A DNA stretch of 64,000 nt from assembly GCA_011087645.1 (NCBI GenBank), contig JAALLF010000009.1:51348-115347 (forward strand), in the 5' to 3' direction. Of this stretch, positions 18,976 to 32,132 are shown one piece after another; positions within the stretch are counted from its first letter, which is position 1, and each line of letters opens with the position of its first letter. Both the position numbers and the translations under genes were made by a program. The notes below the pieces were generated by a model, which saw nothing but the letters and a program-made list of their open reading frames with translations, had not been told where the DNA came from and did not search any database. This DNA comes from Alphaproteobacteria bacterium (lineage in GTDB: Bacteria; Pseudomonadota; Alphaproteobacteria; UBA6615).

Positions 18976-19145
18976 GGGAACTTTCCCTTTTATCCTCTGG
19001 TGGGTCCGCCAACGTAACACTACGCCGCGAATTCAACGCAACCGGAAATTAAGCAGGCGTGTCGCTAGCGCAGCCGGCATGACTTGTGCTGTATAGGGAC
19101 AACAATTCAACTCGTCCGAAGGCGAGTATCCGGGGGAATGAGTTT

Positions 19146-21479
19146 ATGCGCGAGTATGGAATCGGCCAGTCGGTGCCACGGGTCGAAGACCGCCGGTTGC
19201 TGACCGGGTTGGGAAACTATACCGACGATCGCAAGGTCGCCGATCAGGCCCAAATGGCGGTCGTGCGATCGCCCCATGCCGCCGCCCGGGTGACCGCTAT
19301 CGACACCGCCGCCGCTGCTGAGATGCCGGGCGTCCTGGCTGTCTTAACGGGTGCGGATGCCGACGCCGACGGGCTGGGCGGTCTGTCGTGCAGCGTGAAA
19401 CGGCGCCAGCGCGACGGCCAGCCGATGGTCGAACCGCCCTACCCGATCCTGGCTCATGACGCGGTCAATATGGTCGGCGTCGCGGTCGCCATCGTGGTTG
19501 CCGAACGTCTCGACCAAGCCCTCGACGCCGCCGAGATGGTCGAGGTCGATTACGACGTTCTAGACGCGGCGACCGATACCGGCAGCGCCATGGAGGCCGG
19601 CACCCCGCAGGTCTGGAACGAGGTCGAAAACAACGAGAGCTTCTATTTCACCCTGGGCGACCAGACAGCCATAGAAGAGGCCTTCGGGTCGGCCGATCAT
19701 GTGGTCGAGTTGGGGTTCACCGTCACCCGGGTCTCGGCCAACCCGATGGAACCGCGCGGGATGATCGGCTTCTACGATCCCAGCGACCAGCGCTACACCT
19801 TATATGCCGGCATGCAGTCGCCGCACCGGGTGCGCAGCGAACTGGCGGCCAGCGTGTTGCGGGTGCCTGAGGCGCGGCTGCGGATTATCTCGCCCGATAT
19901 GGGCGGCGGCTTCGGCATGCGCGGCGCACCCTTCGCCGAGCATGCGCTGGTGCTGTGGGCCGCCCGGCGGCTGGGACGTCCGGTGCGCTATGTGGCGACC
20001 CGTTCCGAATCCTTGGCCACCGACTACCACGCTCGCGACAATGTCTCCTCGGCCGGGCTGGCGCTCGATAGCGACGGCAAGTTCCTCGGCTTGCGGGTCA
20101 GCACCAAGGCCAATCTCGGCGGCTATCTGAGTTTCGCCGGGCCCCATTCGCCGACCAATAATCTCGGCGGCCTGTCGGGGGTCTATACGACGCCGGCTAT
20201 TTTCGCCGAAGTGCGCGGCGCCTACACCCATACCAGCCCGACCACCGCCTATCGCGGCGCCGGCCGGCCTGAAGCCTCCTACGCAGTCGAACGCCTCATC
20301 GACACCGCGGCGCATGAGTTGGGTTTCGACCCGGTGGAGCTGCGCCGGCGCAACCTCATTCCAGCCAGCGCCCTGCCCTACGACACCGGCTTCGTCTTCA
20401 CCTATGACACCGGCGATTTCGAAGTGGTCTTGGACAAAGCCGTCGAGGTGGCTGATCGGGCCGGCTTCGCCGCGCGCCAGTTAGCGGCGCGCGACCAGGG
20501 AAAACTGCGCGGTCTGGGCATCGCCTGCGTCATCGAAATCGCCGGCGGTCCGCTGCCGGTCCCCAATGAGGAAAGCGCCGCCATTCGCTTCGAGGCCGAT
20601 GGCGGGGCCACTGTCGCGATGGGCACCCACTCCCACGGACAGGGACACGAGACCGCGTTTCGCCAAATCACCCAGGAACTGCTCGGCCTCGAATTCGACC
20701 AGATCTCCATTACCTATGGCGACACCGACGTGGTGCCCCACGGCAAGGGCACCTTCGGCTCGCGCTCGATCAGTGTTGGCGGCGCGGCGCTGCAGCGGGC
20801 GTCGGAAAAAATCATCGACAAGGCAACGCGGATCGCCGCGCACCTGCTCGAGACGGCCGAAGCCGATATCCGCTTCGACGACGGCCAGTTCATTGTCGAG
20901 GGCACCGACCGCTCGATCAGCCTGACCGACATCGCTAAGGCCGCCTATGCGCCGGCGCGCCTGCCCACCGGCATGGAAATCGGCCTGGCCGAGAGCGCCA
21001 TCGTGCTGCCGCCAGGGCCGACCTACCCCAATGGCTGCCATGTCTGCGAAGTCGAGATCGACCGCGACACCGGCGTTGTCGAGATCATCAATTACGTCGT
21101 CATCGACGATTGCGGGCGCATGCTCAACCCGTTGCTGGTCAAGGGTCAGGTCCATGGCGGCATCGCCCAGGGCGCCGGCCAAGCCCTGATGGAAGAAGTG
21201 GTTTATGACGGCGACAGCGGGCAGCTCCTCACCGGCTCTTTCATGGACTACACCATGCCGCGCGCCGACAATTTCCCCTCCTTCGAGGTGGTCGGCCATG
21301 AGGTGCCGTCGACCAACAATCCGTTTGGCTTCAAAGGCGCCGGCGAAGCCGGCACGGTGGGCGCCCTGCCGGCGGTGATGAACGCGGTGTGCGACGCGCT
21401 GCGCCCGCTCGGCGTACGCCACCTGGATATGCCGGCGACGTCGCAGCGAATCTGGCAGGCGATCCAGAACGCAGAATAA
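19146..21479 (+). CDS. xanthine dehydrogenase family molybdopterin-binding subunit (form-II CoxL-like)
   Basis: N-terminal GQSVPRVEDRRLLTG. The active-site loop reads AYRGAGR, the form-II/BMS-type motif, not the AYxCSFR of true CO dehydrogenase. Confidence 0.85.
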   Translation: MREYGIGQSVPRVEDRRLLTGLGNYTDDRKVADQAQMAVVRSPHAAARVTAIDTAAAAEMPGVLAVLTGADADADGLGGLSCSVKRRQRDGQPMVEPPYPILAHDAVNMVGVAVAIVVAERLDQALDAAEMVEVDYDVLDAATDTGSAMEAGTPQVWNEVENNESFYFTLGDQTAIEEAFGSADHVVELGFTVTRVSANPMEPRGMIGFYDPSDQRYTLYAGMQSPHRVRSELAASVLRVPEARLRIISPDMGGGFGMRGAPFAEHALVLWAARRLGRPVRYVATRSESLATDYHARDNVSSAGLALDSDGKFLGLRVSTKANLGGYLSFAGPHSPTNNLGGLSGVYTTPAIFAEVRGAYTHTSPTTAYRGAGRPEASYAVERLIDTAAHELGFDPVELRRRNLIPASALPYDTGFVFTYDTGDFEVVLDKAVEVADRAGFAARQLAARDQGKLRGLGIACVIEIAGGPLPVPNEESAAIRFEADGGATVAMGTHSHGQGHETAFRQITQELLGLEFDQISITYGDTDVVPHGKGTFGSRSISVGGAALQRASEKIIDKATRIAAHLLETAEADIRFDDGQFIVEGTDRSISLTDIAKAAYAPARLPTGMEIGLAESAIVLPPGPTYPNGCHVCEVEIDRDTGVVEIINYVVIDDCGRMLNPLLVKGQVHGGIAQGAGQALMEEVVYDGDSGQLLTGSFMDYTMPRADNFPSFEVVGHEVPSTNNPFGFKGAGEAGTVGALPAVMNAVCDALRPLGVRHLDMPATSQRIWQAIQNAE

Positions 21480-21638
21480 CCTCCCTTATTAGGTGTAGAT
21501 TCTCACTCCTATTTCACGAAGGCGTGTAGTCGGCTCTGACGAATTGACTGCGCTAACCATTCCTCTCATGATTTGGAGCGTGTGTTCCAATTTATTTTGT
21601 TGCACACGCTTCAGAAATATATTGGGGAGGAATCAGTT

Positions 21639-23087
21639 GTGAGCAAAGTTGGGAAAAAATCTGAGAAGTCTGTTGTCGAAACCAAGGAAGAACAGGTAAC
21701 GACCGGCATGGATCGCCGTGGTTTCTTGGGAGCCGCCGGTCTAGGCGCGGCAGGCGTCGCCACCGCATCGGCGACCGGACTATTGTCCAAAGGCGCGTCC
21801 GCGGCAATTTCAGCGCCCGACACTGGTATTACGCCAGGCGCTGAATCTGTGGCGCGCATGGCGCCCTATACGGATTCATGGAACCGCATCGCCGCCCGCC
21901 CCTTCGGCGGCTTCAACTTCGCACTGGGTTACATCGGTGAAGGCGTCGACATGATGGACCCGAAGCAGGACAAGCCAAACCCGTCCGGCCTGTTCGAAAG
22001 CGCCAACCCGGCCATTGTCTCTGGCGTCGGCGACAACGAGACCGACGACCGGTCGGCCGAATATTGGTATCGCGGCATTTTGAATTGGTCGAACGAGACC
22101 ATCGCCAACGATTTCTGGTCAGCGATCAACTATATGCGCCGCATGTGGGCACTCGACCTCGATGATCCGGAAACCGATGGCATTCAGCTCGGCGACGGTT
22201 CGCGTTATCGCTATCCCGGCAGTCCCAATCCGAACGACGAAATCAGCTTGTGGTCGCCGCGCATCGCGCGCGACGGCAAGGGTGGCTATGTGCGCATGGC
22301 GCCGACATTGCTCGCCCCCTCGGTTGGCTACACTGTCGTTTTCCGAGCCGGCCGCGACCATCCCAACTATACCGGCGGCACCACGGCGCGGTCGCCGGAA
22401 GATCCCGGTAAAGTTCGTGACGGCGGCATCTGGGGCGGCACTATTGCCGATATGGATGTGCTGAAGATCATGCAAGATGTCGAAGCCGGCAATCGGACTT
22501 ACACAACGCCGGGCGGCAATAAGAGCGATTCAGCTTTGTGGGGTCAGTTCTGGAGGCGGGTCGCACCGCTTGAAAATGTCAACATCTCGCAGATCAATCC
22601 GGACACCGCGTTTGCCGACCGGCCGGCGCCGCGCAGCAACTGGCCAATCGGCTATCTGCCGAGCGGCACGGACTATTTCTGGGGCAACTACGATCTGAAA
22701 TTCGGCGAAGATGAACCGACGGTCGTGCTGCACTATGAATCGCAGATCCCCACCCGGTTCCGCGACTTTGATGGCGTTCCGGAAGCCTTCATCTGCGAAC
22801 TCACCGCGCATCCCGGCGGCACCGATATGCCGGCGGATCAGGTCGCCCGCGGGTTCAAGGATACCGACGGCAGCCTCTCCGGATTTGCCGACCTGAACGA
22901 TCCGAACTTGAACGGTCAAAACCAGTTCGGTCATGGCCGGGTACACGGCACGTCCTACCCGCGCGGTGTCGATGCGCAGGGCCGGACGACCTTCCACTTG
23001 CGTAACTGGTTGTTGTTCCCGCCGCGCCTCAATGCGGTGAACTCGATCAACGACACGGTGCCGGGCAAGGGTATCCTCAGCGCCTAG
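21639..23087 (+). CDS. Tat-signal-bearing secreted protein of unrecognised family
   Basis: Twin-arginine signal MDRRGFLGAAGLGAAGVATASA. Candidate starts are GTG 21639 behind GGGGAGG, or ATG 21708. The roughly 450-aa mature part is W/Y/G/D/N/P-rich with a single Cys. Confidence 0.7.
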   Translation: MSKVGKKSEKSVVETKEEQVTTGMDRRGFLGAAGLGAAGVATASATGLLSKGASAAISAPDTGITPGAESVARMAPYTDSWNRIAARPFGGFNFALGYIGEGVDMMDPKQDKPNPSGLFESANPAIVSGVGDNETDDRSAEYWYRGILNWSNETIANDFWSAINYMRRMWALDLDDPETDGIQLGDGSRYRYPGSPNPNDEISLWSPRIARDGKGGYVRMAPTLLAPSVGYTVVFRAGRDHPNYTGGTTARSPEDPGKVRDGGIWGGTIADMDVLKIMQDVEAGNRTYTTPGGNKSDSALWGQFWRRVAPLENVNISQINPDTAFADRPAPRSNWPIGYLPSGTDYFWGNYDLKFGEDEPTVVLHYESQIPTRFRDFDGVPEAFICELTAHPGGTDMPADQVARGFKDTDGSLSGFADLNDPNLNGQNQFGHGRVHGTSYPRGVDAQGRTTFHLRNWLLFPPRLNAVNSINDTVPGKGILSA

Positions 23088-23586: not shown

Positions 23587-23599
23587 CGAGATGGTGGTT

Positions 23600-24247
23600 A
23601 TGGCACTAGGAACTGAAACGCGCACAAAGATACCGGCGAGCCAACGGGCGCCGGGGCGTCCTCGTGGCTTCGAAGCGGATGCGGTATTGGACGCGGCGCT
23701 GGAGTTGTTTTGGAAACACGGCTATCGCACGACAACAACCCGCGATTTAGAATCCGCCCTCGGCCTATCTCAGTCGAGCCTCTACAACACCTTTGGGTCG
23801 AAGAAGGATCTGCTGGAAGCCGCCCTGGATCGCTACGAGGCGATGACCGACCGCGAACTGTTACGGCCGATGGAACAATCGAGCGCCGGCCTGGCGGCCA
23901 TCGACACCTTCTTTGTCGATCTGGGTCATTGGGTGACCCATGAGGGCCGGCGCGGTTGCATGCTGATCAATATGATGGCCGAAGATGGCGGTGAGACCGA
24001 CGCCATTACAATTCGCGCCCGCATCTACCGCACCCGCGTTCGCGATGCGCTGCGCGCCAGCGTTGCCCGCGCCATCGCCGAGGGCGAGACGCGCGACATC
24101 GACGCCGATGATTGCGCGGATTTGCTGCTCGGGTTGGTGTTGGGGCTGAACATCGCCGCGCGCGGCGGCGCGTCGGATACCGAACTGGCCACGTTGATGG
24201 ACGCCATTCACGCCCAGGTCAGCGGTTGGCGCGTCGCGCCGAGCTAA
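23600..24247 (+). CDS. TetR/AcrR family transcriptional regulator
   Basis: N-terminal HTH region LDAALELFWKHGYRTTTTRDLESALGLSQSSLYNTFGSKKDL. Confidence 0.85.
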   Translation: MALGTETRTKIPASQRAPGRPRGFEADAVLDAALELFWKHGYRTTTTRDLESALGLSQSSLYNTFGSKKDLLEAALDRYEAMTDRELLRPMEQSSAGLAAIDTFFVDLGHWVTHEGRRGCMLINMMAEDGGETDAITIRARIYRTRVRDALRASVARAIAEGETRDIDADDCADLLLGLVLGLNIAARGGASDTELATLMDAIHAQVSGWRVAPS

Positions 24248-24265: not shown

Positions 24266-24496
24266 CTATTGCGCCTGAAACCGCAGGCGCAAATCTTCGT
24301 AACCGCCAATATGCTCACCGTCGATGAATATCTGCGGCACCGCCTTGGCGCGCGGCAGACGCTCTTGGAAATCCGCCAGGATCGCCGGGTCCGACATCAC
24401 GTCGAGGTTGGTGTAGGCCAGCCCCTTCTCGTCCAGAAGCTTTTTGGCGGCGTCGCAATAACTGCATTGCGGCGTTGAAAAAATTTCGATTTTCAT
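24266..24496 (-). CDS. glutaredoxin
   Basis: 76 aa with a CSYC active site in IEIFSTPQCSYCDAAKKLL, and C-terminal VPQIFIDGEHIGGYEDL. Confidence 0.85.
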   Translation of the reverse strand: MKIEIFSTPQCSYCDAAKKLLDEKGLAYTNLDVMSDPAILADFQERLPRAKAVPQIFIDGEHIGGYEDLRLRFQAQ

Positions 24497-24559: not shown

Positions 24560-25141
24560 TTAGCCGGGATGGTTGATTGTGAGCATTGGCTTCACGCCGT
24601 CGAACATCGGCTCGAGCGCAACGCCAAGCGCATCGCCGAATTTGGAAACGGCGATGTACTGGGTAATGACAAAGGCCGCGTCGACGATCTGCGGCTCGGT
24701 CCAATTGGCGTGCAGGCGATCCCACAGCTCCTTCGGCACCCGGTTGGCGTCCTCGCCGATCTGTATGCAGAAATCGAGCAACGCCACTTCACCCTCGGTA
24801 AAGTGCGGGCTGGTGCGATACTTGACGCCATCGATATCGCGGATCTTCTCCTCTGTCATGCCAAGCATATCGCACAGACGTTCGTGCTGGATAACGCAAT
24901 ACTGACAGTCGTTACCCTGAGTGGCTTTAAGGATCAGCAATTCCTTGGTCAGCCAGTCGAGCTCACCGTCTTTCAAAATCGCCATAATCATTTCGGTGAA
25001 GGCGTTGCCGTACTCGGGCTGATGGCCAAACACTTTGAATATGTTCAGCAGGGCCTGAAAACGATCCTCCGCTTTGTCGTAGAATTCCAAGGTTGCCGGA
25101 TTGGCGGTTTCACGTTCGACGTATGAGACACTCATCTTCAT
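24560..25141 (-). CDS. carboxymuconolactone decarboxylase/AhpD-like family protein (CxxC)
   Basis: LILKATQGNDCQYCVIQHERL is the AhpD-type CxxC-H motif. 193 aa. Confidence 0.75.
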   Translation of the reverse strand: MKMSVSYVERETANPATLEFYDKAEDRFQALLNIFKVFGHQPEYGNAFTEMIMAILKDGELDWLTKELLILKATQGNDCQYCVIQHERLCDMLGMTEEKIRDIDGVKYRTSPHFTEGEVALLDFCIQIGEDANRVPKELWDRLHANWTEPQIVDAAFVITQYIAVSKFGDALGVALEPMFDGVKPMLTINHPG

Positions 25142-25187: not shown

Positions 25188-25769
25188 CTAACGCAACAAT
25201 GCCGCCGCTTGGGCCGCGACCGACCGCAGCAACGGTTCTTCCGGGCGCGAACGCGACAACACCCGCAACCCGATAAATAGCCCCAACAAACCCCGCGCCG
25301 TATCGACCGGATCCACATGGGCCGGAATCTCGTCGGCGTCCTGCCCTTGGTCGATCATGTCGCGAAAAAAACTCTCCATTTCGGCCAAGCCATGATCGAC
25401 AATTTCTGAAATTTCCGCATCGTGCGGCGACAATTCGAGCGCGGTATTCACCAGCAGGCAGCCATCGCTCGAACCGGCATCGACGACTGCCGAGATCACT
25501 TGATCGAAGGCGGTCTCGATGGCCGCGCGCGGGCTGTTCGCGGCAATAACGGCGGCAATCCAGTCCTCCCGATAAACCGAGTCATAGCGGCGCAACGCCT
25601 CGATAAACAGACTGCGCTTGTCGCCGAAAGTGGCGTACAGGCTGCCCCGGTTGATGCCCATGCACTCGACGAGGTCCTGCATCGACGTGGCGTCGTAGCC
25701 TTGCGCCCAAAAGGCGCCCATCGCCTTCGACAAGGCCGCGTCGTGATCGAACTGTTTTTCCCAGGGCAT
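25188..25769 (-). CDS. TetR/AcrR family transcriptional regulator
   Basis: HTH region AMGAFWAQGYDATSMQDLVECMGINRGSLYATFGDKRSLF. Confidence 0.85.
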   Translation of the reverse strand: MPWEKQFDHDAALSKAMGAFWAQGYDATSMQDLVECMGINRGSLYATFGDKRSLFIEALRRYDSVYREDWIAAVIAANSPRAAIETAFDQVISAVVDAGSSDGCLLVNTALELSPHDAEISEIVDHGLAEMESFFRDMIDQGQDADEIPAHVDPVDTARGLLGLFIGLRVLSRSRPEEPLLRSVAAQAAALLR

Positions 25770-25852: not shown

Positions 25853-25880
25853 AAAAAAGAACCCGGCCGAAGCCGGGTTC
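25853..25880 (-). terminator. rho-independent terminator of the UGA-containing redoxin gene
   Basis: On the minus strand, GAACCCGGC-uucg-GCCGGGUUC (25859-25880) is followed by a U6 run (plus-strand A-run 25853-25858). It lies 29 nt after the TAA. Confidence 0.8.
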
Positions 25881-25908
25881 TCATCTGCATAGATAACGCC
25901 TGCGAGCG

Positions 25909-26388
25909 TTATTTATTTTTCTGCGATTCGTAGAAATTCACCATCTTAACCACATCGGACGCATCGAGCCGGCCAAGCGGGCCGTCGCTGTAGCATGAAT
26001 TCATGATGGTATTGGTTTCCGCATTGATCAGGTAGGCCGTCGGCTGAATGATTTGCCGGCGTTCTTCCCACCAGGATCCCAATAGATCAGCGGTCGCTTT
26101 GGTAAGCCCATAGCCGATCGGGAAGTTGACCGTATCGGCGATTTCTTGCGCCTTATCGAGCGGATCGACGCTGGAAGCGACAACCTTGACGCCTATCTCG
26201 TCAAATTGGTCTTTGTGTTCTGCGAAGCCGGCTAACTGACGGCGACAATAGGGTCACCAGTGACCCCGGTAAAACAGGACGACCCGGTAACTAGAATCCA
26301 GGCCCTCCGGCAGGTCGAGCGTGCCGCCGCCGACGAGATCAACTGTCACGGTCGGCAGGGTATCGCCTATGCCAAATCTGTCAGACAT
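25909..26388 (-). CDS. peroxiredoxin-like (AhpC/TSA-redoxin fold) protein with in-frame UGA at the CxxC position; probable selenoprotein (UxxC)
   Basis: Hand translation gives ATG 26388 (AAAGGGG upstream), 44 codons, TGA at 26254-26256, then 114 more sense codons to TAA 25909-25911. The motif reads VVLFYRGHW-[TGA]-PYCRRQLAGF. The six-frame track lacks it because the TGA splits it. Confidence 0.7.
26220..26248 (-). promoter_or_regulatory. candidate SECIS-like hairpin 8 nt downstream of the UGA
   Basis: Minus-strand RNA UUGU-C-GCCG-[UCAGUUAGC]-CGGC-UUC-GCAG. The upper stem is 4 GC pairs, the lower stem 4 pairs (2 wobble), and the 9-nt loop contains GU. It is a modest structure folded by eye only. 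Confidence 0.3.
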
Positions 26389-26525
26389 GTATGCCCCTTT
26401 GTCTAAACAATGCTGCGGCGGGTTCGCAAAAGCCGGTGCCGCGATCCACCACCATCATGCAACGAAGCCTAGCGTCGGTGCAACGCTCCTATTTCGGCGA
26501 AGGTAATCGCATGTGACAGCCTCGC

Positions 26526-26665: not shown

Positions 26666-28699
26666 CTATTTCGGCGGCTTACCGCCGCCCCTACCGCCAC
26701 CGCCGCCGTTGCCCCCTTTACCTTTTTTGACATTCAGCGAGACGACCGCCGTGGCGCTACCGCCGTTTGGATCATCGGCGCTGAAGGTAAAGCTGTCAGC
26801 GCCGGTGTAATTATTATTCGGCGTGTAGGTCTGGTTTGCGCCGGTCCCGGATAGCGTTCCATTCGACGGGGCCGACACGATCGCAAAGCTCAGCGCATCA
26901 CCATCCGCGTCGCTGCCAGTCAAGGTGATGTCGACTTGCGTGTTCTTTCGCGTCGTCACAGACTGATCATCAGCCACCGGCACATCGTTCACCGCCGCTA
27001 CGGCAACCGAAACGCTAGCGCTATCAACACCGCCCTTGCCGTCGGAGATGGTGTAGTCGAACCCGTCATTGCCGTTGAAGTTCGCCGCCGGCGTATAGGT
27101 GACGCTGTCATCGGCGTTGATCAGCACGGCTCCGTTTGCGCCTTGGGTGACCGAGACAACCGACAGGCTATCGCCATCGGGATCGCTATCGTTGGCCAAC
27201 ACAGCGATCTGAACCGCGACATCTTCGTCGGTTGCGGCGCCGTCGGCGGTTGCCACGGGCGGATCGTTCGGCGTGGTCACGCCAACGGCGATCTCGATCT
27301 GACCCGACGCACTGTCGGAAATGCCGTCGTTCACTGTAAAGAGCAGATCGTCGTTGCCGGCATATCCCGGGTTGGGCGTGTAGGTCAGGTTCGGCGCTGT
27401 CCCCGACAGGGTGCCGTTCAAGGGTAGTGACACCAGAGCGTAGGTCAACGGATCACTGTTGGCGTCGCTACCGGTCAGGGTGACCGCGAGCGCGGTATCG
27501 GCAGGCGTTACCAATTGCTGGTCGTCGGCGACCGGCGCGGCCAAGCCGCTGCAATCGCCCCATTGCTGCGAACCGCGATCGCCGGTCGTGGTGGTGGCCT
27601 GGGCGACGATGCACTGGGTCTGACCCTCAAGGGCCTCGAAGGTGAGGTTGAGGTGATAGTCGGCCGGATTTAAGTCGGCGGTGCGGATTGTCACCCCATT
27701 GAACTGTCCATCGTGGAAATTGTCCGGGTGCTGTTGGTCCATATGCACATGCGCGCTGTAGGTCTCGCCATGGTCAGGCCAGAACGGCCCCTCGTTGACG
27801 CCGCCCTCGCCAAAGCTTTCCCAGGGAACGCTCGAGCTGTCTTTATGAGTGTATTGGCGGTTCCACTCGGTCATATCGAACCAGGACGGGTACGCATTGT
27901 AGCCGCGCGCATCGGGCGTATTACCCGGCTGGATCAAACGCTGGGCGGCAAAATCGTAGAGCAATAGCTCGACCCGATTGACATCCACCCGCGGCGTGTC
28001 GACCTTCACTTCGACCACCGGGTTCGAGGGGCTCGACGTATCAACCGCGCCAAAGGTCACTGTCGGCGGTGTCGGATCGCTATAGGGCAACACAATTAGC
28101 GGATGGATGGCGTCGCGCTGCCAGCTGCTGAACTTGTCGTCGGCCGGCGCGTCGCGGATTTCGAAATGCAAATGATCGAAGCCGCTGGCGCTCTCGCCAG
28201 AGAAGGCGACCAGGTCGCCCTTCGAGACGGTGTCGCCGACCGACACGGCCCAACCGCTCAGATGCATGTAGTTGCTGTGATAGCAGCCGACGCCGTCGCA
28301 ACTGGCATGGCCGGGACGGAAATGGCGAATCTGTACCACCGGGTCGGAATAGCTCGAGTGATTACCGGCCAACCGAACGACACCGTCGGCGATGGCGAAG
28401 ATTGGTGTACCGATCGGCGTCGCGATGTCGAGACCGCGGTGGAAATCGTAGCGGTCGTTCTGCGATGTCAGCGGCCGCGGACCATAGGTCCAGTTTAACG
28501 GCAGATCGGTGTAGTCGGCGTTGCCCCAGCGTTCCTGCGGACATCCGTGGGACGCGGCATCCCAACCGGCGGGCGGCGCATCGGCGATGCGCCCGCATAG
28601 GGGCCAAGCGGGTGCCGGATCGAATTGCTGGCCAGAAGCCGCCGCGCTCCACAGCAAAGGTGCCAAACACAGAAAAAAGAGGAAATATCGTTTGATCAT
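26666..28699 (-). CDS. secreted M23 family metallopeptidase with C-terminal cadherin/Ig-like repeats
   Basis: Signal peptide MIKRYFLFFLCLAPLLWSAAASG. M23 motifs HRGLD and HLHFE. Three repeats of about 90 aa and a Gly/Lys-rich tail. Confidence 0.8.
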   Translation of the reverse strand: MIKRYFLFFLCLAPLLWSAAASGQQFDPAPAWPLCGRIADAPPAGWDAASHGCPQERWGNADYTDLPLNWTYGPRPLTSQNDRYDFHRGLDIATPIGTPIFAIADGVVRLAGNHSSYSDPVVQIRHFRPGHASCDGVGCYHSNYMHLSGWAVSVGDTVSKGDLVAFSGESASGFDHLHFEIRDAPADDKFSSWQRDAIHPLIVLPYSDPTPPTVTFGAVDTSSPSNPVVEVKVDTPRVDVNRVELLLYDFAAQRLIQPGNTPDARGYNAYPSWFDMTEWNRQYTHKDSSSVPWESFGEGGVNEGPFWPDHGETYSAHVHMDQQHPDNFHDGQFNGVTIRTADLNPADYHLNLTFEALEGQTQCIVAQATTTTGDRGSQQWGDCSGLAAPVADDQQLVTPADTALAVTLTGSDANSDPLTYALVSLPLNGTLSGTAPNLTYTPNPGYAGNDDLLFTVNDGISDSASGQIEIAVGVTTPNDPPVATADGAATDEDVAVQIAVLANDSDPDGDSLSVVSVTQGANGAVLINADDSVTYTPAANFNGNDGFDYTISDGKGGVDSASVSVAVAAVNDVPVADDQSVTTRKNTQVDITLTGSDADGDALSFAIVSAPSNGTLSGTGANQTYTPNNNYTGADSFTFSADDPNGGSATAVVSLNVKKGKGGNGGGGGRGGGKPPK
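26729..27538 (-). repeat. three tandem ~90-aa cadherin-like/VCBS-like domain repeats inside the M23 protein
   Basis: Each unit reads (N)D(x)PVA(D/T)...TLTGSDA(D/N)...(T/S)Y..(V/I)S.P.NGTLSGT..N.TYTPN..Y.G.D.F.F...D. Residues about 388-657. Confidence 0.7.
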
Positions 28700-28943: not shown

Positions 28944-31900
28944 ATGCTGACGATGAGACACTATCTGGCCAGCCTCGCCGTTGGCCTGTTGCTTTTTGGC
29001 GGCGTGCAAACCGGAGCCGCAGCGGTTCTCGAACGCGGCCCCTATCTGCAGACCCCTACCGCGTCGAGCATGGTGCTGAAATGGCGCACCGATACGCCGA
29101 CTGATTCGGTGGTGATTTTCGGCGATGCGCCGACCAGTCTCACCACCACCGTGTCCGACCCCACCTTGACGACGGAACACGAAGTCACGGTCAGCGGTCT
29201 CGCGCCCGACACGCGCTATTATTACTCGGTGGGCGCGACCGGCGAGACCTTGAGCGGCGCCGATAGCGATCACTTCTTCACCACCAGTCCCGCGCCCGGC
29301 ACCGCCACGCCGACGCGAATCTGGGTCATTGGCGATTCCGGTACCGCCAATGCGGACGCAGAGGCTGTGCGCGACGCCTATAAGGCGGTTACCGGAACCA
29401 GTGACACCGATCTATGGCTGATGCTCGGCGATAACGCCTATCCTGACGGCACAGATAGCGAGTATCAGGCCGCCGTGTTCGACACATATCCGGAGCTATT
29501 GCGCAAGATTCCTCTGTGGCCGACCTTGGGCAACCATGACGGCCACAACGCCGATTCCGCCACGCAGGCTGGCCCCTATTACGATATCTTCACCCTGCCG
29601 AAGAATGGCGAGGCTGGGGGTCTGCCCTCGGGTACCGAGGCCTACTATTCGTTCGACTATGGCAACATCCATTTCGTCAATCTGGAATCCTACGAGACCG
29701 ACCGCTCGCCGGGCGGCGCCATGATGACTTGGCTGACCAACGATTTAGCGGCCAACGACAAGGAATGGGTCATCGCCTTCTGGCACCATCCGCCCTACAC
29801 CAAGGGCTCGCACAATTCCGACACTGAAGGCCGACTAATCGATATGCGGCAAAACGCGCTGCCGATCTTGGAATTCCATGGCGTGGATTTGGTCTTGTCG
29901 GGACATAGCCACGCTTACGAACGCTCCCATCTGCTCGACGGCCATTACGGCGCGTCCAACACCTTGGACGACGCCACAATGATCCTCGACAACGGCGGCG
30001 GCAGCGAGGCCGGCGCCGGCGCCTACGACAAGCCAGCGGGCGGCACCAACGCCGGCGCGGTCTACGCCGTGGCGGGCAGCTCGGGCAAGACCAGCAGCAG
30101 CGGTAATCTGGACCATCCGGCGATGTACTTCTCGCTGCGCAGCCTGGGCTCGATGATCCTGGAAGTGAACGCCAACCGGCTCGACGTCCAATTCATCGAC
30201 CAAAACGGCGATGTCGATGATGAATTCACCATCACCAAAGGCCCCGATACCACACCACCGACCATTACCAAGACCGAAGCCGGCGACGCCGCGGCTGTCA
30301 CCGTGACCTTCTCGGAAAAAGTCGAGGCGGCAAGCGCGGAAGACGTCACAAATTACGCGATCGACAACAGCGTTGACGTTGTCGGAGCAACCCTGGCAGC
30401 CGATGAGCGAACAGTGACCCTCGACACATCGCCGCTTACCGAGGGTGTTCTTCATACGTTGACCGTCAACAATGTGGACGACATCGCCGGCAATACGATT
30501 GCGGCGAACAGCCAGAGCCAGTTCACCTTCGTGGTCATCCAGACTAAGGACTTCCAGGATGGCGTGGCGCCGACATCCGGCTATGCCGGCACAAGCGACG
30601 CCTATATTTCCGAGGGTTCGCCGAACGGCGCCTTTGGCACCGCGACCACATTGTTGGTCGACGGCAGCGACCCGTCGGGCCTGGATCTTTCGTCCCTAAT
30701 GTTTTGGGATATCAGCGAAATCCCCAGCGATGCCCTGGTCGATAGCGCGTCGATCACCATCAACGTCACCAATGTGAACAGCACCGCCTACAATATTTAC
30801 CAGATGCTGACCGGTTGGCAGGAAACCACCGTGACGTGGAATGAAGCGTCCTCGGGGACCCCCTGGCAAAGCCCTGGCGCGGATGGTGCGGCGGATCGCG
30901 GCGCGACGGTGTTGGGCGCCATGTCCAGTGGCGTCACCGGCCCCCTTACGGTGCCCCTCAACCAAGCGGGCCTCGACGTTATCCAATCGTGGATCGACGG
31001 CAGCGCGCCGAACCACGGCTTTATTACGACGAATACATCGGCGAGCAACGGCCTTGATTTCAGCTCGCGCGAAGCAAGTGGCGCCCTCAACCATCCGAAA
31101 TTATCGGTGACCTATTCGCTGCCGACCAGCGGCCCGGACACGGAGCCCCCAAGCCCCCCTTTTTCGCTAACCAATGATTCCAAGACCGATACCAGTATCT
31201 CTTTTTCCTGGCAGTCGTGCGAATCGGCGCCTTGCGACAACGTTGGGGTGACCGGTTACATCGTTTACCGAAACGGCGGCATGGTGGGGACGCCGGTCAC
31301 ACCATCGTATATCGATAGCGGCCTGACGCCGGACACACTCTATACCTACGAGGTCAGCAGCATCGACGCGGCGGGCAATGAATCTCCGCTCAGCTCTCCT
31401 CTCCCAGTGATAACCGATCCGGCGGCAACGCCGACGGTTCTGGTCAACGATATCGCTATGTCCTTGCTGAGCAACAGGAAGCTGCGCGCCAGCCGCGCCG
31501 ATGTGGTTATCGTCGATGGCAATGCCCAGCCGGTTGCCGAGGTTACGGTTTCCGGTTTCTGGAGCGGCTTGACGAGTGCAAATGTGACGGGCAGCACCGC
31601 GGGAGATGGCACGATCACCTTCGATTCTGCCGAGGTACCGAAGAATAGCGGCGGCGAATTCGCATTTTCGATCACCAACCTCGAGAGCGTCGACCATGTC
31701 TACGACGAAGCGGCCAATATCGAATCCAGCGACTGCATCACCAGCGGCGGCGGCGCCTGCAGCGACGGGCCTGGCGATCCTCCCGGCGACCCGACATTCT
31801 TCATGAAGGTATCTTCGATCGTCGTGATGCCACTCGCCGCGCAAAAACGGTGGCAGGCCGAGGCTGAAGTAACAGTCGTCGACACGCCAGACGGCAATCT

Positions 31901-32132
31901 CATTCCCGGCGCGACCGTGACCGGTAATTGGACATTCATATCGGGCAGTACGGTGGATCTCGGTAATGCTAGCGCCGTCACCGATGGATCGGGTGTCGCC
32001 CGCTTATTATCGCCTAAACGCAAGGCCAACAGCGGCGATGAATTTATCTTCACGCTGACCGGGGTGACCAAAACGGACGGAGCGCTCGACAATAGCGAAG
32101 GGCAGTCTACCGGCAGCGCACTCGTACCCTAG
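28944..32132 (+). CDS. large secreted purple-acid-phosphatase-like metallophosphoesterase with Ig/DNRLRE-like/Fn3 C-terminal domains
   Basis: Signal peptide, then a PAP N-terminal domain (LERGPYLQ...RYYYSVG). Metallophosphoesterase motifs GDSG, GDNAY, GNHD, WHHPPY, GHSHAYER. Later TGWQETTVTWNEAS, and an Fn3-like segment (ISFSWQ...GYIVYRNG). Confidence 0.8.
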   Translation: MLTMRHYLASLAVGLLLFGGVQTGAAAVLERGPYLQTPTASSMVLKWRTDTPTDSVVIFGDAPTSLTTTVSDPTLTTEHEVTVSGLAPDTRYYYSVGATGETLSGADSDHFFTTSPAPGTATPTRIWVIGDSGTANADAEAVRDAYKAVTGTSDTDLWLMLGDNAYPDGTDSEYQAAVFDTYPELLRKIPLWPTLGNHDGHNADSATQAGPYYDIFTLPKNGEAGGLPSGTEAYYSFDYGNIHFVNLESYETDRSPGGAMMTWLTNDLAANDKEWVIAFWHHPPYTKGSHNSDTEGRLIDMRQNALPILEFHGVDLVLSGHSHAYERSHLLDGHYGASNTLDDATMILDNGGGSEAGAGAYDKPAGGTNAGAVYAVAGSSGKTSSSGNLDHPAMYFSLRSLGSMILEVNANRLDVQFIDQNGDVDDEFTITKGPDTTPPTITKTEAGDAAAVTVTFSEKVEAASAEDVTNYAIDNSVDVVGATLAADERTVTLDTSPLTEGVLHTLTVNNVDDIAGNTIAANSQSQFTFVVIQTKDFQDGVAPTSGYAGTSDAYISEGSPNGAFGTATTLLVDGSDPSGLDLSSLMFWDISEIPSDALVDSASITINVTNVNSTAYNIYQMLTGWQETTVTWNEASSGTPWQSPGADGAADRGATVLGAMSSGVTGPLTVPLNQAGLDVIQSWIDGSAPNHGFITTNTSASNGLDFSSREASGALNHPKLSVTYSLPTSGPDTEPPSPPFSLTNDSKTDTSISFSWQSCESAPCDNVGVTGYIVYRNGGMVGTPVTPSYIDSGLTPDTLYTYEVSSIDAAGNESPLSSPLPVITDPAATPTVLVNDIAMSLLSNRKLRASRADVVIVDGNAQPVAEVTVSGFWSGLTSANVTGSTAGDGTITFDSAEVPKNSGGEFAFSITNLESVDHVYDEAANIESSDCITSGGGACSDGPGDPPGDPTFFMKVSSIVVMPLAAQKRWQAEAEVTVVDTPDGNLIPGATVTGNWTFISGSTVDLGNASAVTDGSGVARLLSPKRKANSGDEFIFTLTGVTKTDGALDNSEGQSTGSALVP

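What the first reader, a model, noticed from the sequence alone, without database searches (positions are those of the whole stretch)
25909..26388. Unannotated UGA-interrupted peroxiredoxin-like gene: probable selenocysteine (U-x-x-C) redox protein
The six-frame track shows no minus-strand ORF at all across 25.84-26.51 kb. The only ORF listed there is a 61-aa plus-strand one at 26321-26506, which looks spurious. The minus strand reads as one clean 159-codon gene if a single in-frame TGA (26254-26256) is decoded. It has an SD (AAAGGGG), ATG 26388, TAA 25909-25911, and a textbook hairpin plus U-run terminator. My translation is MSDRFGIGDTLPTVTVDLVGGGTLDLPEGLDSSYRVVLFYRGHW[TGA]PYCRRQLAGFAEHKDQFDEIGVKVVASSVDPLDKAQEIADTVNFPIGYGLTKATADLLGSWWEERRQIIQPTAYLINAETNTIMNSCYSDGPLGRLDASDVVKMVNFYESQKNK. 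FYRGxW-C-P(Y/F)C-xxxL is the redox-active motif of the AhpC/TSA Prx-like thioredoxin-fold family. The TGA sits exactly where the first (nucleophilic) Cys belongs, and the frame stays open for 114 further family-like codons. Sec/Cys interchange at the CxxC of thiol oxidoreductases is the established hallmark of bacterial selenoproteins. The gene also lies in a thiol-redox neighbourhood. An automated annotation would miss it or call it a pseudogene.
Basis: partly seen in the sequence, partly recalled or inferred. Interest (0 to 1): 0.85.

Follow-up and report, generated by a model that had tools for sequence, protein, structure and literature searches.

The report
Unannotated selenocysteine Prx-like redox gene
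This is a real but unannotated gene for a selenocysteine-containing peroxiredoxin-like redox protein, and it belongs to a selenoprotein family ("Prx-like 1") published in 2005-2008, so it is a correct catch but not a new kind of thing.

Summary
Minus strand 26388-25909 reads as 159 codons with one in-frame TGA (26256-26254) inside FYRGHW-U-PYC, with an SD, ATG, TAA and terminator.

The selenoprotein interpretation is strongly supported:
- All 80 species-level genome relatives (56-68% identity) carry TGA at this column. Only rare homologues carry Cys.
- Both sides of the TGA are under equal purifying selection.
- UGA is a normal stop for 18 of 51 long ORFs in the window.
- A 6-bp hairpin with loop AGUUG/A starts 11 nt after the UGA. 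Its core plus the loop GU occurs in 72 of 72 distinct sequences, against 1.8% expected from codon usage. It shows compensatory changes.
- selA, selB, selC or selD lie within 10 kb in 38 of 80 relatives.

The scaffold is Prx-like, but the active site is thioredoxin/ResA-like (UxxC plus a conserved Pro). It is not a true peroxiredoxin site.

The exact subfamily (…LFYRGHWUPYCRRQL…) is listed as "Prx-like 1" in the GOS 2008 selenoproteome supplement, so this is a new member of a known kind.

Not testable here: Sec machinery in the window's own genome (it is a metagenome scaffold), and actual Se incorporation. The window's hairpin is the weakest of the set (a U·C mismatch).

The parts
25909..26388 (-). 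Complete coding sequence of the Prx-like selenoprotein: 159 codons including Sec45, with ATG at 26388-26386 and TAA at 25911-25909.
   Evidence: Searches give the sequence and translation. Pfam AhpC-TSA scores 1.5e-18. Full-length colinear orthologues exist. Purifying selection acts on both sides of the UGA.
26254..26256 (-). In-frame UGA, read as Sec45, the first position of the U-P-Y-C redox motif.
   Evidence: TGA sits at this column in all 80 genome loci and in L001-L006. Rare homologues have Cys (TGT/TGC) here. UGA is otherwise a normal stop in the window, ending 18 of 51 long ORFs.
26245..26247 (-). Codon for Cys48, the second residue of the UxxC motif. It aligns with the peroxidatic Cys of true Prx and with the second Cys of ResA CxxC.
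   Evidence: Invariant in alignments A1 and A3. PDB profile alignments show the correspondence.
26227..26243 (-). SECIS-like hairpin inside the coding region. The stem is GCCGUC/GCCGGC (6 positions, with a U·C mismatch at the fifth in this copy) and the loop is AGUUA. The stem starts 11 nt after the UGA.
   Evidence: 97% of cells form standard pairs, against 17-54% for slid controls. Pair 18-26 shows 5 standard pair types and pair 15-29 shows one compensatory change. The core stem plus loop GU occurs in 72 of 72 sequences, against 1.8% under synonymous resampling. The Leu codon is UUG or UUA in 80 of 80 sequences, against an 11% background. dG is -5.8 kcal/mol here and -10.8 to -14.1 in fully paired relatives.
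26394..26400 (-). Shine-Dalgarno-like AAAGGGG, 5 nt upstream of the ATG.
   Evidence: Read directly from the sequence.
25853..25880 (-). Intrinsic terminator: GAACCCGGC-TTCG-GCCGGGTTC followed by TTTTTT, about 28 nt after the stop codon. It makes the gene monocistronic.
   Evidence: Read directly from the sequence. It was not listed by the consensus scan.
25188..25769 (-). TetR-family regulator immediately downstream, with its own promoter-like site at 25819-25791. This is context and a possible regulator of the redox cluster.
   Evidence: Pfam TetR_N and TetR_C_13. Promoter-like TTGACC-17-TAAAAT. Synteny is kept in L001-L003 and L006.
24560..25141 (-). AhpD-like / carboxymuconolactone decarboxylase (CMD) family protein with a CQYC motif in the Cys form. 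This is context.
   Evidence: Pfam CMD 1.3e-13. NCBIfam peroxidase-related / AhpD core domain. Sequence shown.
24266..24496 (-). Glutaredoxin (76 aa, CSYC), a candidate reductant for the selenoprotein. This is context.
   Evidence: NCBIfam GRX_bact 8.2e-21. Sequence shown. Called as PF00462 in L006.

Best explanation
The locus is an intact, expressed-type gene for a 159-residue cytoplasmic selenoprotein. [quoted passage not shown]

Recoding (inferred from anatomy and comparative data). When the ribosome reaches UGA45, the hairpin 11 nt downstream (stem GCCGNC/GNCGGC, loop AGUUR) recruits SelB·GTP·Sec-tRNASec. Selenocysteine is inserted instead of termination. The hairpin lies within the codons for C48-R-R-Q-L-A-G-F, so RNA and protein constraints are superimposed.

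Chemistry (inferred from family knowledge). The protein has a peroxiredoxin-type thioredoxin fold. Its active site is thioredoxin/ResA-like, with U45-P-Y-C48 at the N-cap of helix 1 and an invariant Pro116 where ResA has its proline loop. It lacks the Prx Pro/Thr/Arg catalytic set. Sec45 is the attacking nucleophile on an oxidised substrate, which may be a disulfide, a sulfenic acid or possibly a hydroperoxide. A Se-S bond to Cys48 resolves the intermediate. A thiol system then regenerates the enzyme; in this lineage the neighbouring glutaredoxin with GSH is plausible, and the AhpD-like protein may be a partner.

The substrate is unknown.
For: Shown by tool results:
- The reading frame and motif are as described, and the family is AhpC-TSA.
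- TGA is conserved at the same column in 80 of 80 species-level loci from Alpha- and Betaproteobacterial MAGs at 56-68% identity, and in the syntenic L001-L003 at 82%.
- Of the 120 best database proteins, 89 are C-terminal fragments and 24 read 'W' at this column. One 'W' protein (P0011) was checked and is TGA in the DNA. Only 6 are true Cys forms.
- Selection is equal on both sides: pS 0.40-0.54 against pN 0.10-0.20 in the 44 N-terminal codons, and pS 0.48-0.66 against pN 0.09-0.20 in the C-terminal part.
- No in-frame start codon occurs after the UGA until 26082, so the C-terminal domain cannot be made separately.
- UGA ends 18 of 51 long ORFs in the window.
- The hairpin is 97% paired, with compensatory changes. 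The core stem plus loop GU occurs in 72 of 72 sequences against 1.8% under synonymous resampling.
- Distant Cys forms lack the hairpin, and L089 lacks the loop GU.
- Sec machinery lies within the flanks in 38 of 80 loci: selA 28, selB 30, tRNA-Sec 30, selD 12. Among loci with at least 9 kb on both sides the figure is 24 of 43. The order is often selA-selB-selC followed by this gene.
- The active-site mapping comes from PDB profile alignments.
- A confident AF2 model of Cys homologue P0005 (pLDDT 92.4) places CxxC at a helix N-cap. Its best structural matches are Bcp and Prx at TM 0.80-0.84.

Literature:
- The Prx-like UXXC selenoprotein family is described in PMC1088965.
- 'Prx-like 1, pfam00578, UxxC, 225 selenoproteins' is in PMC2398784. 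Its supplement lists sequences with the identical LFYRGHWUPYCRRQL motif.
- The family is listed as 'predicted with high confidence' in PMC13188914.
Against: - The window comes from a metagenome scaffold. No tRNA-Sec, selA, selB or selD is present in the 64 kb window or in 10 kb beyond it, so Sec machinery in this particular genome is unverified.
- The window's hairpin is the weakest of the set. It is the only one of 72 sequences with a U·C mismatch at pair 18-26, and its dG is -5.8 kcal/mol.
- The 81-nt region does not fold better than shuffled sequence (z = -0.33).
- No Rfam SECIS model matches.
- The sequences are phylogenetically related, so the shuffle and resampling statistics overstate independence.
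- According to the reviews read, this family is only 'predicted' and has not been shown experimentally to contain Se.
- The catalytic function (disulfide reductase or peroxidase) and the partners are inferred, not shown.
Confidence: 0.88

Rival explanations
1. Relic gene. The family is a genuine selenoprotein family, but this particular lineage has recently lost the Sec machinery. The window copy would then be a non-functional remnant that terminates at UGA45.
For: No sel genes or tRNA-Sec occur in the window, in 10 kb beyond it, or in the syntenic relatives L001-L003. The window's SECIS hairpin has a U·C mismatch and the lowest stability of those folded.
Against: The window copy and its 82%-identical relative L001 both keep TGA, the start codon, the full frame, the hairpin core and the loop GU. 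Their divergence shows pN/pS of about 0.15-0.25 on both sides of the UGA, which neutral decay would not give. Twelve other sequences tolerate a U·U mismatch at the same pair. In many relatives the sel genes are also more than 10 kb away: 42 of 80 loci show none in the flank.
Confidence: 0.05
2. Simple nonsense pseudogene or sequencing error: a Cys codon (TGC/TGT) mutated or misread to TGA in this copy.
For: A single-base change would convert TGY to TGA. The source assembly calls only the 44-aa N-terminal piece here.
Against: TGA occurs at the identical column in all 80 independent species-level assemblies and in several metagenomes. The downstream RNA hairpin is conserved. Purifying selection acts downstream of the stop.
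Confidence: 0.01
3. UGA is decoded as a standard amino acid rather than Sec. This could be Trp or Gly through a reassigned genetic code, or Trp/Cys through near-cognate read-through stimulated by the downstream hairpin.
For: Public gene callers translated 24 of the 120 best hits with W at this position. Low-level Cys/Trp insertion at Sec codons under selenium limitation is known from other systems (own knowledge).
Against: UGA terminates 18 of 51 long ORFs in the window, so the code is standard. The one 'W' protein checked (P0011) lies on contigs of about 1.4 kb and does not translate to the query under table 11. Trp in place of the nucleophile of a CxxC site would be inactive. The tight physical linkage with selA-selB-selC-selD points specifically to Sec.
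Confidence: 0.03
4. The gene is a true peroxiredoxin (a peroxidase) in which Sec merely assists. Cys48 would be the peroxidatic residue, as in canonical Prx.
For: The best sequence and structure matches are BCP and Prx. Cys48 aligns with the Prx peroxidatic Cys. The neighbouring gene is AhpD-like.
Against: The Prx catalytic Pro (-7), Thr/Ser (-3) and Arg are replaced by Arg41, Sec45 and Pro116. The motif and the Pro align with ResA's CxxC and its LPTTF proline. The literature classes the family as distinct from TxxU Sec-Prx (PMC1088965).
Confidence: 0.15

Closest known systems
Prx-like 1 / 'Prx-like thiol:disulfide oxidoreductase' selenoprotein family (pfam00578, UxxC). Sources: Zhang & Gladyshev, Sargasso Sea 2005 (PMC1088965), GOS 2008 (PMC2398784), and reviews PMC9312934 and PMC13188914.
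   Same: It has the same Pfam domain and the same UxxC Sec motif. The local sequence is identical to sequences listed under '#Prx-like 1' in the GOS supplement, such as LFYRGHWUPYCRRQL. It has a bacterial-type SECIS directly after the UGA. Cys homologues exist. An association with AhpD-like genes is noted in the literature.
   Different: Nothing essential differs. This copy comes from an uncultured alphaproteobacterial-type metagenome scaffold and is unannotated. Its local context (TetR, AhpD-like, Grx) is lineage-specific. The reference member cited in the reviews (WP_010940744.1, which I recall as Geobacter) was not compared directly here.
Sec-containing peroxiredoxin (Prx, TxxU), for example from Eubacterium acidaminophilum
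   Same: It shares the AhpC/TSA fold and is a selenoprotein with Sec in the active-site helix cap.
   Different: In Sec-Prx the Sec replaces the peroxidatic Cys (T-x-x-U). Here Sec sits three residues earlier, in place of the Thr, and the peroxidatic position stays Cys (U-x-x-C). The Prx Pro and Arg are absent.
ResA / TlpA / StoA-type thiol-disulfide oxidoreductases (W-C-x-x-C plus a conserved Pro)
   Same: GHW-U-PYC aligns with ResA GTW-C-PHC, and the invariant Pro116 aligns with the Pro of ResA's LPTTF. The overall fold is a thioredoxin fold with an N-terminal beta-hairpin extension.
   Different: ResA and TlpA are membrane-anchored and extracytoplasmic, whereas this protein shows no signal or anchor sequence by inspection of the N-terminus. 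Similarity is low (E about 3e-7). The best structural matches are Prx and BCP rather than ResA. This protein has Sec instead of Cys.
E. coli fdhF-type bacterial SECIS (own knowledge of the SelB-binding minimal hairpin)
   Same: It is a hairpin inside the ORF that begins about 11 nt after the UGA, with a small apical loop containing G-U. A small apical loop with a guanosine is the feature PMC1088965 names as common to bacterial SECIS elements.
   Different: The stem is shorter (6 bp) and has no bulged U. Instead, many members have a U·U or U·C mismatch at the fifth pair. SelB binding was not tested, and no Rfam model matches.

Membership tests
Prx-like 1 / Prx-like thiol:disulfide oxidoreductase selenoprotein | AhpC/TSA (pfam00578) domain | tested here: met
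   PF00578 scores 1.5e-18 and 67.3 bits against a cut-off of 26, covering residues 7-124.
Prx-like 1 / Prx-like thiol:disulfide oxidoreductase selenoprotein | In-frame UGA forming a U-x-x-C motif that aligns with Cys of a CxxC in homologues | tested here: met
   The motif is HW-U-PYC. Cys forms read HWCPYC, HWCPFC or HWCPLC, with TGT or TGC in the DNA.
Prx-like 1 / Prx-like thiol:disulfide oxidoreductase selenoprotein | Sequence-level match to published members | tested here: met
   The GOS 2008 supplement lists, under '#Prx-like 1', sequences with YRGHWUPYCRRQL and YRGHWUPFCRRQL. GHWUPYC occurs 27 times.
Prx-like 1 / Prx-like thiol:disulfide oxidoreductase selenoprotein | Bacterial SECIS: a stem-loop immediately downstream of the UGA with a small apical loop containing G | tested here: met
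   The hairpin occupies alignment columns 14-30 with loop AGUUR. It is 97% paired with compensatory changes. It occurs in 72 of 72 sequences against 1.8% under synonymous resampling. The window copy has one U·C mismatch.
Prx-like 1 / Prx-like thiol:disulfide oxidoreductase selenoprotein | Host genome encodes selA, selB, selC (tRNA-Sec) and selD | not testable with these tools
   The window is a metagenome scaffold. None of these genes is in the window or in 10 kb beyond it. In relatives the feature is met, with sel genes within the flank in 38 of 80 loci.
Prx-like 1 / Prx-like thiol:disulfide oxidoreductase selenoprotein | Selenium actually incorporated at the UGA | not testable with these tools
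   This needs 75Se labelling or mass spectrometry. The reviews list the family as predicted only.
Canonical peroxiredoxin (Prx/BCP/AhpC) | Prx fold | tested here: met
   An AF2 model of the Cys homologue P0005 (57% identical, pLDDT 92.4) matches Bcp4, Prx6 and AhpC at TM 0.80-0.84. It is a proxy, not the window protein itself.
Canonical peroxiredoxin (Prx/BCP/AhpC) | P-x-x-x-T/S-x-x-Cp active-site motif | tested here: not met
   The aligned positions are R41…U45-P-Y-C48. The Cp position is kept, but Pro is replaced by Arg and Thr/Ser by Sec.
Canonical peroxiredoxin (Prx/BCP/AhpC) | Conserved catalytic Arg (the R-x-x-F-I-I/V strand) | tested here: not met
   The Arg of 2cx3 (KRAVF) and of 6q5v (VRAVF) aligns with the invariant Pro116 (QPSEF).
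Sec-containing Prx (TxxU) | Sec at the peroxidatic position | tested here: not met
   Sec is at -3 relative to the peroxidatic position. The literature separates UXXC Prx-like proteins from TXXU Prx.
ResA/TlpA-type thiol-disulfide oxidoreductase | W-C-x-x-C motif and a conserved Pro loop | tested here: met
   GhwCpyC aligns with ResA GTWCPHC, and P116 aligns with the Pro of LPTTF. The cis conformation of the Pro was not tested.
ResA/TlpA-type thiol-disulfide oxidoreductase | N-terminal membrane anchor or signal peptide (extracytoplasmic location) | tested here: not met
   The N-terminus MSDRFGIGDTLPTVTVDL… has no hydrophobic segment. This was judged by inspection only; no predictor was run.

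The most novel reading that the evidence does not exclude
In uncultured Alpha- and Betaproteobacteria, this Prx-like 1 selenoprotein, rather than formate dehydrogenase, may be the 'anchor' selenoprotein that travels with and justifies the selA-selB-selC(-selD) locus. Its function may be tied to selenium handling itself, for example reducing selenotrisulfides or protecting or delivering selenide for SelD, rather than to general antioxidant defence. The linkage is kept in at least two different gene arrangements. In several Alphaproteobacterial loci the gene is co-directional, directly after selC. In Burkholderiales it is convergent with selC.
Probability: 0.1. Interest if true: 0.5.

Novelty: new member of a known kind. 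Interest (0 to 1): 0.2.

Why it matters
Biologically it adds one more instance of a well-documented, abundant environmental selenoprotein family, so nothing new in kind.

The practical value is in annotation. In a 5.8-billion-protein collection, 113 of the 120 best relatives are truncated at the UGA or translated with Trp there. No NCBIfam model reaches its cut-off for this subfamily. NCBI MAG records name the C-terminal stump 'redoxin domain-containing protein'. A dedicated model with Sec awareness would repair many records.

The comparative set assembled here also gives three useful things:
- A clean example of an RNA element constraining an amino-acid position. Residue 53 (V/A/G/D) co-varies with the wobble base of Arg50.
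- A likely recent Sec-to-Cys conversion that still carries the SECIS hairpin (L088).
- A strong physical linkage between this gene and the Sec-machinery locus, which I did not find described in the papers read.

The family's substrate and the actual incorporation of Se remain experimentally untested.

Tried and rejected
- Folding 81 nt after the UGA alone gave an MFE no better than shuffles (z = -0.33). It also suggested a long-range pairing and a small hairpin enclosing the UGA itself (26250-26267). Neither is conserved. The UGA-spanning hairpin needs GGU for Gly, which only 23 of 80 sequences have, and alifold keeps only the local 6-bp hairpin.
- Rfam at gathering threshold over the whole window, and at E <= 10 on 26150-26300, found no SECIS family, only a chance sRNA hit.
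- ARAGORN on the window found no tRNA.
- tblastn with SelA and SelB from L004, and with a SelD probe, found nothing in the window. The SelD probe was E. coli SelD recalled from memory, and it was validated by strong hits in 12 loci.
- One more look-up extended the source scaffold by 10 kb and found no sel genes.
- A crude scan for other UGA-interrupted redox genes in the window returned 77 motif hits. All except 26256 were in low-complexity, out-of-frame-looking contexts, and I did not pursue them.
- The TetR-CMD-Grx cluster was tested as a conserved functional module, but it is kept only in the closest relatives. It is therefore weak evidence for partners.
- The consensus terminator scan missed the obvious terminator.
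- One literature search failed on a syntax error.
Full report
**1. Observation**

It has a single in-frame TGA at 26256-26254 (codon 45) inside FYRGHW-*-PYCRRQL.
- AAAGGGG lies 5 nt before the ATG.
- The stop codon is TAA (25911-25909).
- A 9-bp GC-rich hairpin with a TTTTTT tail follows at 25880-25853.
- After the TGA, the first in-frame start codon is a TTG at 26082. The C-terminal domain therefore cannot be made on its own in this genome.
- With U replaced by C, the protein matches Pfam AhpC-TSA (1.5e-18) and Redoxin (7.7e-9).

**2. Is the TGA conserved or an accident?**

A search of 5.8 billion proteins gave 442 relatives. Of the 120 best:
- 89 are 90-115-aa pieces that begin just after the motif;
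- 24 are 'full-length' proteins with W at the Sec column, on short contigs;
- 6 are true Cys forms.

One 'W' protein (P0011) was checked and is TGA in the DNA.

Reading the DNA directly shows TGA at the motif column in several sets of loci:
- the syntenic metagenome relatives L001-L003 (82% identity);
- a 3.6-Mb contig (L004);
- an NCBI MAG (L005).

In all of them the N-terminal 44 codons are conserved.

A scan of one genome per GTDB species returned 256 relatives. The best 80 are Alphaproteobacteria, Rhodospirillaceae, Hyphomicrobiaceae, Defluviicoccus, Burkholderiales and other Betaproteobacteria MAGs, at 56-68% identity. All 80 carry TGA at this column.

Between the window and five relatives, synonymous differences far exceed non-synonymous ones. 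This holds equally upstream of the TGA (pS 0.40-0.54, pN 0.10-0.20) and downstream (pS 0.48-0.66, pN 0.09-0.20).

UGA is an ordinary stop for 18 of 51 long ORFs in the window, so the genetic code is standard.

Together these results exclude a nonsense pseudogene, a sequencing error and a reassigned code.

**3. The recoding signal**

The 48 nt starting at the UGA are much more conserved than the protein requires.

RNAalifold and my own reading agree on one hairpin. It occupies alignment columns 14-19 and 25-30, which correspond to window 26243-26227. The stem is GCCGNC/GNCGGC, the loop is AGUUG or AGUUA, and it begins 11 nt after the UGA.

Pair counts:
- 97% of cells form standard pairs, against 17-54% when the 3' partners are slid.
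- Pair 18-26 shows GU 27, AU 13, GC 12, UA 4, UG 3, UU 12 and UC 1.
- Pair 15-29 has one double compensatory change, in L064.

Column 26 is the second position of codon 53. The amino acid there (Val, Ala, Gly or Asp) therefore co-varies with the wobble base of Arg50.

Codon use confirms selection at the RNA level:
- The Leu codon in the loop is UUG (70) or UUA (10) in 80 of 80 sequences. Those two codons make up 11% of Leu codons in long ORFs of the same loci.
- Arg49 is CGC in 79 of 80 sequences, against a 39% background.

I resampled synonymous codons for the same peptides with background usage. The five core pairs plus the loop GU appeared in 1.8% of trials, against 72 of 72 observed. These sequences are related, so the numbers overstate independence, but the effect is very large.

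The Cys forms serve as controls:
- The distant ones (L090, L091) have no hairpin.
- L089 (TGC) has CUA for Leu, so the loop GU is gone.
- L088 (TGT) keeps the whole element, which looks like a recent Sec-to-Cys conversion.

[quoted passage not shown] This hairpin fits that description.

There are caveats for the window copy:
- It is the only sequence with U·C at pair 18-26.
- Its hairpin is the least stable of those folded, at -5.8 kcal/mol against -10.8 to -14.1 for fully paired relatives.
- The wider 81-nt region folds no better than shuffles.
- No Rfam SECIS model matches.

**4. Sec machinery**

The window has no tRNA genes and no SelA, SelB or SelD matches.

The window is part of a 119-kb metagenome scaffold (ERZ23499434, scaffold_98). 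The same region is in NCBI MAG GCA_012103305.1. Another 10 kb of the scaffold shows no sel genes.

At lineage level the link is strong:
- In L004 the gene lies 4 kb from selA-selB.
- Across the 80 species loci, selA (28), selB (30), tRNA-Sec (30) or selD (12) lie within the available flank in 38 loci.
- Among the 43 loci with at least 9 kb on both sides, 24 have one of these genes.
- In several Alphaproteobacterial loci (L029, L045, L055) and two others (L068, L069) the order is selA-selB-selC followed within about 40-240 nt by this gene.
- In Burkholderiales the gene is convergent with selC.

The low pN/pS between the window and L001, neither of which has sel genes nearby, argues that the gene has stayed functional in this clade.

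**5. What the protein is**

Profile search of the PDB gives BCP and Prx as best hits (2cx3, 2.7e-9), followed by ResA.

In the Prx alignments:
- Cys48 falls on the peroxidatic Cys.
- Sec45 falls on the conserved Thr/Ser.
- The Prx Pro at -7 is Arg41.
- The catalytic Arg is the invariant Pro116.

In the ResA alignment:
- Both positions of U-P-Y-C align with ResA's C-P-H-C.
- Pro116 aligns with the Pro of LPTTF.

It puts the CxxC at the N-cap of helix 46-57. Its best structural neighbours are Bcp4, Prx6 and AhpC at TM 0.80-0.84.

So the scaffold is peroxiredoxin-like while the active site is thioredoxin/ResA-like. This matches the literature name 'Prx-like thiol:disulfide oxidoreductase'.

The likely chemistry is inferred, not shown. 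Sec45 would attack an oxidised substrate, a Se-S bond to Cys48 would resolve the intermediate, and a thiol system would recycle the enzyme.

**6. Neighbourhood**

The gene is monocistronic, with its own terminator. Downstream on the same strand lie:
- a TetR regulator (25769-25188);
- an AhpD-like/CMD protein with CQYC (25141-24560);
- a glutaredoxin with CSYC (24496-24266).

A second TetR gene lies on the other strand (23591-24247).

It is conserved only in the closest relatives (L001-L003 and L006), and in a weaker form in a few Betaproteobacteria.

The GOS paper and a 2026 review note Prx-like/AhpD-like clustering.

**7. Comparison with what is known**

- The Sargasso Sea study (2005) describes a 'Prx-like protein' selenoprotein family with a thioredoxin-like UXXC instead of the TXXU of Sec-Prx.
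- The GOS study (2008) lists 'Prx-like 1, pfam00578, UxxC' with 225 selenoproteins.
- The GOS sequence supplement contains, under '#Prx-like 1', entries such as …KYNVVLFYRGHWUPYCRRQLVAFEE… and EYKVILFYRGHWUPFCRRQLVGFEE…. GHWUPYC occurs 27 times. This is the same subfamily.
- Reviews from 2022 and 2026 list the family as predicted with high confidence, not experimentally verified.

The finding is therefore a new member of a known kind.

Two side observations did not appear in the papers I read:
- The 2006 comparative study describes fdhA as the neighbour of selABC in Alpha- and Betaproteobacteria. Mukai (2021) describes fdoGHI-selABC clusters. Neither mentions the strong linkage of this subfamily to the selA-selB-selC(-selD) locus.
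- The co-variation between an amino acid and the SECIS stem.

**8. Verdict**

Novelty is low, and interest is about 0.2. The value lies mainly in annotation. No NCBIfam model reaches its cut-off for this subfamily, and most public protein records for it are truncated or mistranslated.

Noticed in passing
L009, L029, L045, L055, L068, L069 (co-directional); L021, L025, L034, L051, L078 (convergent); This Prx-like selenoprotein gene is physically linked to the Sec machinery in many Alpha- and Betaproteobacterial MAGs. It sits directly after selA-selB-selC in several loci, is convergent with selC in Burkholderiales, and often has selD 2-9 kb downstream. The papers read describe fdhA/fdoGHI as the sel-locus neighbour in these classes, not this gene.
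   Followed up: partly
L088:5615-5662: A Cys form (TGT) of the protein still carries the complete SECIS-like hairpin and loop GU (CGC CGA CAG TTG GTC GGC). This looks like a recent Sec-to-Cys conversion with a fossil SECIS. More distant Cys forms (L089, L090) have lost the loop GU or the whole hairpin.
   Followed up: partly
window 26227-26243 (alignment A2, columns 18 and 26): Residue 53 of the protein (Val, Ala, Gly or Asp; second codon position) co-varies with the wobble base of Arg50 through SECIS pair 18-26. All 4 Asp forms have CGU. Twelve of 13 Ala forms have CGG, the window's CGU being the exception. All 3 Gly forms have CGU. An RNA stem is constraining which amino acid is allowed.
   Followed up: yes
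P0001-P0027; L092:253, L093:746: Twenty-four of the 120 best database proteins have Trp at the Sec column. In the one checked (P0011) the DNA has TGA. Gene callers seem to have applied a UGA=Trp code on these contigs, most of them under 1.6 kb, producing plausible-looking but wrong full-length proteins.
   Followed up: partly
window 26250-26267 (minus strand): In the window the UGA itself sits in the 3' arm of a 7-bp hairpin (GGGGUCA-CUGG-UGACCCU). This needs GGU for Gly42, which only 23 of 80 relatives have, so it is probably a by-product of the conserved G-H-W-U-P codons.
   Followed up: yes
window 21573-23087 (+): A 504-aa ORF has no Pfam match. The source assembly calls it as a 482-aa protein, also without a Pfam hit (L006 15613-17061). 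It sits between a molybdopterin xanthine-dehydrogenase-type gene (19086-21479) and the TetR gene.
   Followed up: no
L094/L095 8154-9409 (about 0.4-1.65 kb beyond the window's left edge): A guanylate-cyclase-like gene is called as two pieces (115 and 295 aa) in the ENA assembly. In the NCBI MAG it is one 402-aa product over 1256 nt, which is not a multiple of 3. This suggests a frameshift, a pseudogene or a recoding site.
   Followed up: no
window 26666-28699 (-) and 28944-32132 (+): Two large, probably secreted proteins flank the gene upstream. One is an M23 peptidase with three Big_9/cadherin-like repeats (677 aa). The other is a 1062-aa calcineurin-like phosphoesterase with CBM96, fn3 and Big_5 domains. 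The pair is syntenic in L001.
   Followed up: no
window 25853-25880 (minus strand): The consensus terminator scan did not report the clear 9-bp GC-rich hairpin with a T6 tail after the gene. Instead it reported a plus-strand hairpin overlapping the stop codon (25889-25916). This region may act as a bidirectional terminator.
   Followed up: no
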